DNA of 64,000 nt from Octopus vulgaris. Its lineage: Eukaryota. The translations under genes were made by a program, and so were the position numbers. Of the stretch, positions 3,236 through 35,836 are shown piece after piece (positions within the stretch are counted from its first letter, which is position 1; each line of letters opens with the position of its first letter). The stretch is from the NCBI GenBank assembly GCA_951406725.2, contig OX597825.1, forward strand, positions 64,790,001-64,854,000, given 5' to 3'. Under the pieces are notes generated by a model, which made no database searches, was not told the origin of the DNA, and saw only the letters and a program-made list of their open reading frames with translations.

Positions 3236-4599
3236 TTTTCATTGCTGTTCTTGTACGTATTAATAATGTATAGACTGAGACTTCCAAGAGTGCTCTCTAA
3301 ACTTCCATGTAGCAGGAATTTTTTCCTATCAAGAAATGATTTAATCAGATAATAGAACTGCGATTCCCTCCTGCGGTTTTCGTGTGACTATACCAGCAAA
3401 TATTAAATATATTAGCTAATAGTTACAGATTACAGCTTTTGATTAGATTTAAAGCAGCTTAATCGAAGTTGAACAGTAGACCGTCGGTATGTTTTATTCT
3501 GTAGCACCCTGGAAACTCAACTAAGTCTAGTATTCGTCTCTACTTATATCAGAATGCTAAAGTTCTGATCAAAAGACGGAAATTAATCTTAGTCACAGCA
3601 GTGAAAATGATTTACATGTGAAATATCTGAAAGAGGTAAATAGTCCAGAAAGGTACGCTTTCTGAGTAATGAGAGTTCATTATTTAATCTCCATGTAGTA
3701 AAATTACAATAGTTTATGTTCTCACTTTCAGCATTCATCAATATGTAGTTTACTAAAGATTAATCCGATACTATCATGACTTACCATGGTAAAAAGGACT
3801 CTCGTTGCGTAATTGGGTGTTCAGGAAGCTAGCTAAATATTTTGGTGTTTGGAATTTACATAATCTTTAAAATTAAGGTGAAATGAAAACTAGACACTAA
3901 GTGTTGGGTAGTCAACTAACGTTTCTATTCAAACTCAAGTTCTGTTATGTCGTGATAGTTGTAGCCATAACATCGTGACGCAGTTTAGTGAAGACGAAAT
4001 CAGTACTAACGTGCCGTGGAGGCAACACTGACGAACTTGGCATCATTTTGTTCACCGAGGGCAAACTATATTCTAATCTCATACTTTGTCTCATGGGATT
4101 GACGATTGCTATTTTGCATTTAAGCATTTTACTGGGAGAAAAATCAGTTATAAATCTCTCAAGATTGCATCACTGGTTTGATTCAGTAACATTTTTACCC
4201 TTATGCAATCTATTGAGGGCAACTCAATGGTAACTCTAACACTTTGCATCTTGGGGATAAAACAAAATAACCTGGCTGTAACTGCAACAAGTCTAATTAG
4301 GACAAGTCATTCTGCCACGATTCCCTCCAACTCGAGGGATTAGCTGATATTTAGCACAGTAGGCTAACACAACACGTAACATTTTCAAAACATTATGACG
4401 GCTTAGAATGGTATGGATTACTAAGCTAGTTAGTTGCTATTTACAGATCTGCGAACTTTGTTATATGAGCGATAAGTGGCTTCTGCATGAACGCCGGGCG
4501 CGGCTACTACTAAACGATATGAACTAGCAACCATTTGAATGCACCCAGACAAGATCTTCACACGGCTGTCTGCAAATTTATAATTCTATACTTCTGTGT

Positions 4600-6416: not shown

Positions 6417-6966
6417 ATCTTTTCTACTCTATGCACAAGGCCCCAAATTTTTTTGGGGAGGGGTCCAGTCGATTAAATCGACCGCAGAACACAACTGCTA
6501 CTTAATTCACCGACCCCGATGAATTAGAACGTAGCGGCAGACGAAATACCTATCTCTTTACTACCCACAAGGGGCTAAACACAGAGAGGACAAACAAAGA
6601 CAGACAAACGGATTAAGTAGATTACATCGACTCCAGTGCATAACAGGTACTTATTTAATCGATCCCGAAAGGATGAAAGGCAAAGTCGACCTCGGCGGAA
6701 TCTGAACTCAGAACGTAGCGGCAAACGAAATACCTATTTCTTTATTACCCACAAGGGGCTAAACACAGAGGGGACAAACAAGGACAGACATAGGTATTAA
6801 GTCGATTACATCGACCCCAGTGCGTAACTGGTACTTAATTTATCGACCCCGAAAGGATGAAAGGCAAAGTCGACCTCGTCGGAATTTGAACTCACAACGT
6901 AACGATAGACGAAATACGGCTACGCATTTCGCCCGGCGTGCTAACGTTTCTGCCAGCTCGCCGCCT
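6417..6966 (-). mobile_element. Multimeric MetaSINE-like element: head + two 184-bp young units + one old-type body
   Basis: Head ggcggcgagctggcagaaacgttagc; core gcctttcatcctttcggggtcgataaattaagtaccag; units at 6550-6733 and 6734-6917. Confidence 0.9.
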
Positions 6967-26408: not shown

Positions 26409-26815
26409 ACACGCACACAAACTGTATAGATCTAGCAAAATAGCTAAATGGCAGTGATATATCATCTATTTTGACCTTATCGACCGCATTCAGATTGAAT
26501 TATCAATAATCTTGTTGTTCTGGTTGCAGTTGTTATTGTTGTTATTCACTGCACAGAACGATGGAGACGACTGGGACAGCAGACAGAGTTTATCGCTGGC
26601 TAAATCGGAGAGGGCGCGGGGACCAACTATGGCGTTTATTGAAATACTAGATAGCTAAGAGGAAAATCTGTCTCTGAATGAAAGCCTCGTCTATATCGTA
26701 TCCACGGAAAGACTTTCTAACAGTTGCTCAGCCTGTTTCGAATAGTCGCGTTAAATACCATTAAATCATGTTCTTCCCTTTTTACTGAAAAGAAAAGACC
26801 CGATAGAGTTATTTA

Positions 26816-27103
26816 CTTACTTGTACTTGCGATGGCGTTCACCCAGGGCGGGTCGAGCCGGCTTCTTCTCTGGTCCTGATAGCATCTCGAACCATAGAAG
26901 AAGTTTCGTGGTAATATTGAATTCACAAGCGGTCCCGGACATCCCGCATGCATATCCCGAGTGACGGGACCGCCTGTTTGCCGCGGAGTCTCCACAGACT
27001 CAGGGACAGAACGACCTCGAAGCCGCCGGTTGTCGATCAGATGCCTCTTGGAATTATCACCAGAGCCCCGTTGGCCAGGCTGCGGCCCTAATACCGCTCG
27101 GTA

Positions 27104-27143
<40 letters not shown>

Positions 27144-27246
27144 GGCCTTGGGTGGCTCTATCAGGAACCGAAGTTCCCGACGGCATAGCTCAGACACTGC
27201 CCGTTTACACCACCCTACCGCTTTGAGGTGTTGGACTTTAGGGTAG
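26816..27246 (-). mobile_element. Complete short non-tRNA retroposon with RTE-like 3' end
   Basis: Perfect 14-bp TSD gatagagttattta at 26802-26815 and 27247-27260; GC-rich; 3' end gccggctcgacccgccctgggtgaacgccatcgcaagtacaagtaag; internal (TATC)n. Confidence 0.8.
27150..27215 (-). ncRNA. Structured three-way-junction RNA near the retroposon 5' end (candidate ribozyme)
   Basis: Stems gggtggt/gccaccc, ggca/tgcc and gtcgggaac-TTCG-gttcctgat; G.U pairs form only on the minus strand. Confidence 0.5.
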
Positions 27247-27434
27247 GATAGAGTTATTTAGTCCTTTATCATTTAAAACGCATACATCTGGATAAGGTTT
27301 TCTACTTGTATGTTCAAACTAGATAGATTCTCCCTCCGACACTTACCAACCGATATCGTTCTAAAAAAAAAAACAATCGCAACATCAAAATTTCAAAACA
27401 AAACGATATTAACTTCACACCTATGTGAATTGAT

Positions 27435-35421: not shown

Positions 35422-35836
35422 TATTCGTTTACTGCCCACAAGGTGCTACACACAGAGGGGATAAACAAGGACAGACAAATGGATTAAGTCGATTATATCG
35501 ACTCCAGTGCGCAACTGGTACTTATTTAATCGACCCTGAAAGGATGAAAGGCAAAATCGACTTCGGGGGAATTTGAACTCACAACGTAGCGGTAGACGAA
35601 ATACCTATTTCTTTACTACCCACAAGGAGCTAAGCACAGAGAGGACAAACAAGACAGACAAACGGATTAAGTCGATTAGATCGACACCAGGGCGTAACTG
35701 GTACTTATTTAATTAACCCCGTAAGTACGAAAGGCAAAGTCGACCTTGGCGGAATTTGAACTCAAAACATAACGGCAGACGAAATACGGCTACACATTTC
35801 GCCCGGCGTGCTAACGGTTCTGCCAGCTCGCCGCCC
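35422..35836 (-). mobile_element. Dimeric family B SINE
   Basis: Second unit 35605-35787 with junction gacgaaatac|ctatttc. Confidence 0.9.

What the first reader, a model, noticed from the sequence alone, without database searches (positions are those of the whole stretch)
26816..27246. Complete 430-bp non-tRNA retroposon with a strand-specific structured 5' RNA (candidate novel or twister-like ribozyme)
Seen: a perfect 14-bp TSD, a GC-rich body, no A/B boxes, no meaningful ORF, and a (caagta)-type tail. Near the 5' end the minus strand folds into a three-way junction (gggtggt/gccaccc; ggca/tgcc; 9-bp stem with a C(UUCG)G loop). Its G.U pairs would be A.C mismatches on the other strand, which points to selection on the RNA. 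A 9-bp stem gcggtcccg/cgggaccgc lies internally. Known: RTE-clade elements can process their 5' ends with HDV-like or twister ribozymes. Inference: the order of elements (stem, GU-AAACG, stem with loop U-GUCU-GA-GC, extra hairpin, stem, AAGGC able to pair with GUCU) echoes twister topology, but the canonical UAA and GA catalytic residues and the 4-bp P2 are absent, so it may be a variant or an unrelated structure.
Basis: partly seen in the sequence, partly recalled or inferred. Interest (0 to 1): 0.7.

Follow-up and report, generated by a model that had tools for sequence, protein, structure and literature searches.

The report
Ribozyme-headed, internally deleted RTE retrotransposon
This is a damaged copy of a short jumping element made of the two ends of a longer RTE-type retrotransposon in the same genome; its first 190 bases match a hepatitis-delta-type (not twister) RNA fold predicted to cut the element's RNA free, an arrangement already known from related elements.

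Summary
The element is real: 431 bp with a 14-bp TSD. It is the 5' UTR plus the last ~77 nt of a 3.4-kb APE+RT LINE (likely RTE clade) in the same genome, joined at an ATG microhomology. Only its UUCG hairpin covaries, and the internal 9-bp stem is perfect only in this copy. The conserved fold is an HDV-like nested double pseudoknot that starts at base 1. P1 covaries in five families (own pairing ranks 1 of 120). L3 U/G and the J4/2 C-N-R-A are kept. In this copy, P2 has a deletion and a microsatellite replaces a P4 strand, so it is probably dead. Cleavage was not tested. Bolder lead: deletion and inversion breakpoints cluster at the start codon, next to a short helix that may pair the two ends of the LINE RNA. 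The scan found this kind of element and a similar end-joining stem before, on other DNA.

The parts
26802..26815 (.). Target-site duplication, 3' (tail) side
26816..26829 (-). CAAGTA-type microsatellite tail of the RTE family
26816..26895 (-). 3' end of the parent LINE: last ORF codons, stop at 26841-26839, short 3' UTR, tail
   Evidence: matches positions 3294-3367 of full-length copy L081; translation
26862..26868 (-). GAAGAAG (Glu-Glu codons), 3' strand of the candidate end-joining helix
   Evidence: pairing is inferred
26893..26895 (-). Deletion junction: ATG microhomology between the parent's start codon and an internal Met codon; gives an 18-codon in-frame mini-ORF at 26895-26839
26897..26903 (-). 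CUUCUUC just 5' of the start codon, 5' strand of the candidate end-joining helix
26929..26973 (-). Internal 9-bp inverted repeat, perfect only in this copy; the family has an imperfect stem
   Evidence: 1 of 28 copies parsed
26896..27246 (-). 5' UTR of the parent LINE (positions 1-322 of L081)
27060..27069 (-). Predicted P2 3' strand (GGGG) and distal UGG extension
27070..27075 (-). Predicted J4/2, G-C-CAA-C; putative catalytic C at 27074
   Evidence: kept in 5 of 5 families; aligns with Rfam HDV consensus GGCUAA in the relative L082
27076..27203 (-). Predicted expanded P4: base helix CGGGC/GCCUG, a helix whose 3' strand is destroyed here, the UUCG hairpin (27178-27163) and a hairpin at 27097-27082
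27104..27143 (-). (TATC)10 microsatellite, private to this copy, replacing a P4 helix strand
27208..27219 (-). Predicted P3 3' strand (GGU), P1 3' strand (AGGGUGG, 27216-27210) and P1.1 3' strand (UG)
27220..27226 (-). Predicted L3 (UCAAAGC): U20 and G25 kept, C24 replaced by A family-wide
27227..27239 (-). J1/2 and the remnant of the P2/P3 5' strands; a 3-nt deletion plus a substitution removes most of the CCCC strand in this copy
27240..27246 (-). Predicted P1 5' strand (CUACCCU); base 27246 is the element's first base and the predicted cleavage point lies just 5' of it
27247..27260 (.). Target-site duplication, 5' side

Best explanation
The element is an internally deleted copy of a 3.4-kb APE+RT LINE, likely of the RTE clade, and its first 190 nt are predicted to form an HDV-like double-pseudoknot ribozyme that would cut the family's RNA just before base 1, though this copy is likely inactive. 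Shown: both ends match a full-length partner; the junction joins the start ATG to an internal ATG; P1, the UUCG hairpin, a P4 hairpin and the P4 base covary between families; copies begin at the first base of P1. Inferred: read-through transcripts are trimmed at the 5' end by self-cleavage (general acid at the J4/2 C), the partner's protein then inserts the RNA by target-primed reverse transcription, and the deletion arose by a template jump from the ORF end to the start-codon region.
For: Partner: L048 and L081 carry both ends and APE and RT frames. 5' end: in 29 copies with a TSD of 8 nt or more, the TSD ends exactly at base 1 in 11 and within 1 nt in 20; the base before an intact start is C6/A6/T6/G3. 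P1: each of five families' first 8 nt pairs best with its own 8 nt after GGU, rank 1 of 120 permutations. On an unedited MAFFT alignment of 32 copies, 4 of 7 P1 pairs change on both sides; the whole structure has 70 two-sided cells vs 29.7 in shuffles. Core: U20, G25, the J4/2 C and the last A of C-N-R-A are the majority base in all four genomic families and present in L082. A model built from the four families finds the distant metagenome LINE L082, not in training, at E 9e-7. Among 4227 Rfam families, the highest-scoring weak hits on L082 are the two HDV families and on family C the top hit is RF02682, all in my register. Cleavage before a C1 has precedent in trypanosomatid elements (PMC4035085, passages).
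Against: No cleavage was tested. The Rfam hits are far below gathering (E 1 to 9.6), and the window copy itself gives no ribozyme hit. This family departs from the HDV norm: C1-G instead of G1-U, a U-U mismatch in P3, C24 to A in L3, and A22-U38 in P1.1. An R2 ribozyme with C-to-A plus G-to-A changes in L3 was inactive (PMC3774820, passages). Nested folding of the family majority gives P1 a probability near 0.01, because the P2 5' strand pairs with the P1 3' strand instead; these programs cannot model pseudoknots. The 32 aligned copies represent only four families, I derived the structure from them, and the count of pairs with a two-sided change (12) did not exceed shuffles (173 of 500). MAFFT leaves families B and D one column out of register in P1 and the P4 base. 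RTE membership rests on architecture and recalled motifs, not on a tree.
Confidence: 0.82

Rival explanations
1. The HDV-like fold is ancestral, but family A's version is no longer catalytic; the sharp 5' end comes from an internal promoter or from RT stopping at a stable structure.
For: Family-wide deviations C24A, P3 U-U and C1-G. A perfect 7-bp alternative stem competes with P1 in family A only (-12.3 vs -10.1 kcal/mol). L1Tc's ribozyme region doubles as a promoter (PMC3185411, passages).
Against: P1 of family A carries compensatory changes relative to B, C and D, so pairing was maintained on its own branch. U20, G25 and the J4/2 C are kept. R2 ribozymes tolerate P3 mismatches and shifted L3 spacing (PMC3774820 section 16).
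Confidence: 0.25
2. The 5' RNA is a twister-like or new three-way-junction ribozyme.
For: The junction is the minimum-energy fold of 27145-27220 in this copy (z -2.87), and its UUCG hairpin covaries.
Against: 0 of 15 pairs outside the UUCG hairpin change on both sides; the closing stem pairs in 76% of cells and one pseudoknot pair in 0 of 32. The closing stem falls to -4.5 and -5.3 kcal/mol in families C and D. The whole region is absent from the relative L082, which keeps the HDV core. The twister pattern finds nothing.
Confidence: 0.03
3. The short copies come from a few SINE-like master deletions made by DNA recombination, not from repeated template jumps during insertion.
For: Some junctions recur: one in 6 and another in 3 of 19 bipartite copies from the 5'-only search. 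For R2 SIDEs recombination was judged the more likely origin (PMC3414825, passages).
Against: About 30 distinct junctions among 45 parsed family A copies and 13 among 17 family C copies (approximate, allele shifts can inflate this). Inverted copies, whose breakpoints are set at insertion, also stop at the start codon.
Confidence: 0.3

Closest known systems
Bipartite non-autonomous RTE LINEs (Bov-A, RTESINE1/2, WALLSI3; Kojima 2018, PMC5786205, passages read)
   Same: Only the 5' and 3' ends of an RTE-type LINE, no RNA-derived head, original 5' end kept, microsatellite tail, TSD.
   Different: Here the junctions are many and cluster at the start codon; that paper says the reason few clades make such elements is unknown. 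I could not compare with Repbase entries.
HDV-like ribozymes at the 5' end of non-LTR elements: RTE (Ruminski 2011, not held, known only through PMC5786205 and PMC6765202), R2 (PMC3774820), L1Tc/NARTc/SIDER (PMC3185411, PMC4035085)
   Same: Nested double pseudoknot starting at the element's first base; P3/L3 with U and G; J4/2 C; C1 start as in the trypanosomatid ribozymes.
   Different: P4 carries a ~95-nt branched insert conserved in four families; P1.1 second pair is A-U; family A has C24 to A and a U-U in P3; P2 has a distal 3-bp extension.
R2 SIDEs and NARTc/RIME (PMC3414825, PMC3383444, passages)
   Same: Short internally deleted elements that keep the parent's 5' ribozyme and 3' recognition end.
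   Different: Not site-specific; APE-type parent; many independent junctions and twin-priming-type inversions.
Twister variants of Perere-3 RTE in Schistosoma mansoni (PMC8501958, passages)
   Same: Ribozyme at the 5' end of an RTE, with the TSD next to the cleavage site.
   Different: No UAA/P2/GC/L4/GA arrangement here; copies start at a P1 strand contained in the element, not at AA.

Membership tests
HDV-like ribozyme | P1 of 6-7 bp starting at the cleavage site and pairing just 3' of P3 | tested here: met
   7 bp in A and D, 8 in C, 6-7 in B; own pairing rank 1 of 120; TSDs end at base 1; criterion from PMC3774820 section 16
HDV-like ribozyme | P2 crossing P1 (pseudoknot 1) | tested here: met
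   CCCC/GGGG in A, B, C and L082; CCCUU/GAGGG in D. Met for the family; the 5' strand is mostly deleted in the window copy
HDV-like ribozyme | 3-bp P3 | tested here: inconclusive
   3 bp in D and L082; 2 bp plus U-U in A, B and C
HDV-like ribozyme | L3 with U20 and G25 (trans wobble) | tested here: met
   majority base in 4 of 4 genomic families and present in L082; signature per PMC3386971
HDV-like ribozyme | Conserved C in L3 (C24) | tested here: not met
   A in 43 of 43 family A copies; C in B, C, D and L082. It is a conserved R2 site per PMC3774820. This lowers confidence for family A's activity, not for the fold
HDV-like ribozyme | P1.1 of 1-2 bp (pseudoknot 2) | tested here: met
   C-G plus A-U in A, B, C; A-U plus C-U mismatch in D; two C-G in L082
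HDV-like ribozyme | Catalytic C first in J4/2, followed by N-R-A | tested here: met
   C-CAA, C-UAA, C-AGA, C-UAA, C-UAA; Rfam consensus GGCUAA. The N-R-A rule itself is recalled
HDV-like ribozyme | G1-U37 or purine at position 1 | tested here: not met
   C1-G in A and D, G1-C in C; C1 ribozymes are active in trypanosomatids (PMC4035085), so the feature is not universal
HDV-like ribozyme | Mg2+-dependent self-cleavage | not testable with these tools
   needs an assay
HDV-like ribozyme | Rfam gathering score for an HDV family | tested here: not met
   window: none; relatives 15.6-18.9 bits vs cut-offs 44-50
Twister ribozyme | L1 UAA, 4-bp P2, GC, L4 of GUCCCAAGC type, GA before RRR | tested here: not met
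   pattern from the table in PMC8501958 finds no match on either strand or in any family, allowing 2 mismatches in L4
Hammerhead ribozyme | CUGANGA and GAAA core around three stems | tested here: not met
   no CUGANGA; the look-alike in this copy comes from two private G-to-A changes
Bipartite non-autonomous LINE | 5' and 3' ends shared with an autonomous LINE, ORF deleted, no RNA-derived head | tested here: met
RTE clade | Single ORF with APE then RT, short 3' UTR, microsatellite tail | tested here: met
   relatives are ~1030-aa APE+RT proteins, 77% identical over 395 RT residues
RTE clade | RT phylogeny groups with named RTE elements | not tested
   no named RTE reference was available from the tools; the clade label is inferred

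The most novel reading that the evidence does not exclude
The LINE's RNA holds its start-codon region against its own 3' end, partly through a short covarying helix (CUUCUUC/GAAGAAG in families A and C, CUCCUAU/AUAGGAG in D, UCCUCA/UGAGGA in B). During insertion the reverse transcriptase jumps, or the second strand primes, at the start codon, so ribozyme-capped two-ended miniatures are made again and again. This would explain why RTE elements in particular spawn bipartite derivatives, and the expanded P4 would be an active, selected ribozyme domain that current models miss.
Probability: 0.35. Interest if true: 0.62.

Novelty: new member of a known kind. Interest (0 to 1): 0.36.

Why it matters
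The copy itself is ordinary and probably dead. The family matters in two ways. First, four related LINE families in one animal genome give a natural covariation series for an HDV-like ribozyme that Rfam misses, with testable departures (A-U in P1.1, C24 to A, a large branched P4). Second, breakpoints of both direct deletions and inversions sit at the start codon. That makes an open question directly testable: why only a few LINE clades produce two-ended miniatures (PMC5786205). It also bears on which 5' and 3' parts RTE-based gene-insertion templates need (PMC13708176, passages).

Tried and rejected
Hammerhead reading of the window copy: dropped, since the family lacks the core. My first HDV register, with P2 at the AGUCCAA stretch: dropped when L082 showed that its supposed partner lies in an insert. 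Rfam on the window: nothing at gathering, three chance hits at E up to 10. Viral contigs: 0 of 83 candidates confirmed. Metagenome contigs: 1 of 150, so only one outgroup, and its 5' end overlaps an inverted repeat that may have altered P1. Sequencing runs: no RNA holder listed; the four runs laid were contigs only and say nothing on RNA ends or expression. End-joining helix as a dominant fold: not supported, since 52 of 208 windows in full-length L081 pair as well with the 5' UTR end, and own pairing ranks 2 of 24. RNAalifold did not recover P1. Not held: Ruminski 2011, Webb 2009, Webb and Luptak 2011; they may already describe RTE ribozymes with large P4 domains. Nine literature searches listed no paper on this ribozyme in cephalopods; 'ribozyme' does not occur in the main text of PMC9115989 or PMC13282606. 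No supplements were read. Rows dropped: duplicates L056 and L074, L030 (no 5' part) and L051 (the query locus L048) were left out of the family A counts; L060 and L061 are one insertion counted twice; family majorities used 43 of 50 A, 14 of 15 B, 18 of 20 C and 11 of 12 D parsed copies, and only 12 of 24 D and 15 of 24 B loci parsed.

Full report
Observation. The minus-strand element runs from 27246 to 26816 between 14-bp direct repeats that occur exactly twice in the window and never in 100 shuffles. It ends in a CAAGTA-type tail and has no tRNA or Rfam match.

Family and parent. A search of the 2.8-Gb own genome scored 40 of 1799 candidate places, all matching; this is a lower bound, not a copy number. 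Longer copies carry the C-terminus and the start of an ORF. Two loci, L048 and L081, hold both ends about 3.0 and 3.4 kb apart, with broken APE and RT frames between them. The window element matches positions 1-322 and 3294-3367 of L081. The junction fuses the start ATG to an internal Met codon in frame, leaving an 18-codon mini-ORF. Relatives are ~1030-residue APE+RT proteins, including cuttlefish proteins. I infer the RTE clade from this architecture and tail; no tree was built. The genome is likely an octopus (my inference; earlier scan notes say the same). With a 5'-only query, 19 of 27 copies were bipartite by BLAST and two more proved so on inspection. This is the known bipartite non-autonomous RTE type (PMC5786205, passages).

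The fold. Protein and DNA searches found three more families in the own genome (B, C, D). A hand-anchored parse gives the same order in all five: P1, J1/2, P2, P3, L3, P3', P1', P1.1', P4, J4/2, P2'. Each family's first 8 nt pair best with its own strand after GGU, rank 1 of 120 permutations. On an unedited alignment of 8 copies per family, 4 of 7 P1 pairs change on both sides; the UUCG hairpin, a second P4 hairpin and the P4 base also show two-sided changes. U20, G25, the J4/2 C and the final A of C-N-R-A are kept in every family; these positions are signature features in PMC3386971 and bioRxiv 2022.09.22.508989 (passages). A covariance model of the four families finds L082 at E 9e-7. Rfam's highest-scoring weak hits on L082 and on family C are HDV families in the same register, though far below gathering score. 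TSDs end exactly at the first P1 base in 11 of 29 copies and within 1 nt in 20, and the base before it is free, as expected if the RNA starts there.

Limits of that evidence. The copies represent four families plus one outgroup, so there are few independent events. I drew the structure from these sequences, and the number of pairs with a two-sided change did not beat the shuffles. Nested folding programs do not recover P1 for the family majority. Family A has C1-G, a U-U in P3, A22-U38 and C24 to A. A C1 start is active in trypanosomatid ribozymes (PMC4035085), but an R2 ribozyme with two L3 changes was inactive (PMC3774820). Activity is therefore predicted, not shown.

Outside the UUCG hairpin, 0 of 15 proposed pairs change on both sides, and one pseudoknot pair forms in 0 of 32 sequences. 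The closing stem is perfect only in family A, where it competes with P1. Twister and hammerhead core patterns find nothing. The internal 9-bp stem is perfect in 1 of 28 copies.

This copy. A 3-nt deletion plus a substitution removes most of the P2 5' strand, and the microsatellite replaces a P4 helix strand. It is probably inactive.

How the deletions arise. Family A shows about 30 distinct junctions in 45 parsed of 54 copies, and family C 13 in 17 of 20. The 5' part ends between -4 and +51 of the start ATG, and no parsed junction cuts into the GAAGAAG near the ORF end; the anchors flank this region, so larger deletions would not parse, but most unparsed copies were inverted or long. In family B, 13 of 24 loci are inverted in the twin-priming manner, and all 13 stop between -8 and +32 of the ATG, while their 3' parts vary in length up to about 300 nt. 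The queries covered only the first 126-200 nt, so they did not select this position. Complementary 7-mers sit at homologous places, just before the ATG and in the last codons, with three two-sided changes between A/C and D. But the helix is weak: own pairing ranks 2 of 24, and 52 of 208 windows of the full-length copy pair as well. Some junctions recur as subfamilies, and the templates of inverted copies may already have been deleted. I rate a tethered-ends mechanism at 0.35.

Known context and verdict. HDV-like ribozymes at RTE 5' ends and bipartite RTE elements are both described (PMC5786205, PMC6765202, passages; Ruminski 2011 not held). Earlier scan notes, seen after my own inference, report the same element type and a similar end-joining stem in other genomes; they are unchecked and are not independent support. 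Verdict: a new member of a known kind, twister rejected, interest 0.36.

Noticed in passing
L123, L126-L129, L133, L084 (upstream of the family B L3): A subfamily of B has lost its P1 and P2 5' strands and is fused behind a different ~200-nt 5' sequence, whose reverse complement also appears in L106. It looks like 5' UTR switching; the new head may hold its own ribozyme.
   Followed up: partly
L161-L180: Family C is younger (1.5% mean divergence from its majority) with a more canonical ribozyme: G1, 8-bp P1, GCAA before P4, L3 with C24. It is the best candidate for an assay. Contig depth over the shared hairpin is about 50 times that of family A-only parts.
   Followed up: partly
window 26929-26973: Three private changes turn the family's imperfect stem into a perfect 9-bp inverted repeat in this copy, as a DNA template-switch at a quasi-palindrome would (inference).
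   Followed up: partly
L005, L006, L017, L060, L071, L115, L163, L179: Short duplications of the first 10-25 nt at the 5' junction, and an inverted 5' start in L012, typical of RT jumps at the RNA end.
   Followed up: no
L082 1-147: A long inverted repeat encloses the ribozyme of this metagenome LINE and overlaps its P1 5' strand; it may be an inversion or an assembly artefact.
   Followed up: no
P0001-P0032 N-termini: Many relatives share a TAS/FPxxDAP motif about 12-20 residues into the ORF; family A lacks it, while families B and D seem to have it.
   Followed up: no
window 6526-6917 and 35428-35787: Two tandem dimers of a ~184-bp repeat unrelated to this element.
   Followed up: no
L049 870-1607 (-): An RT fragment of the parent family that covers the part deleted in L048.
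   Followed up: no
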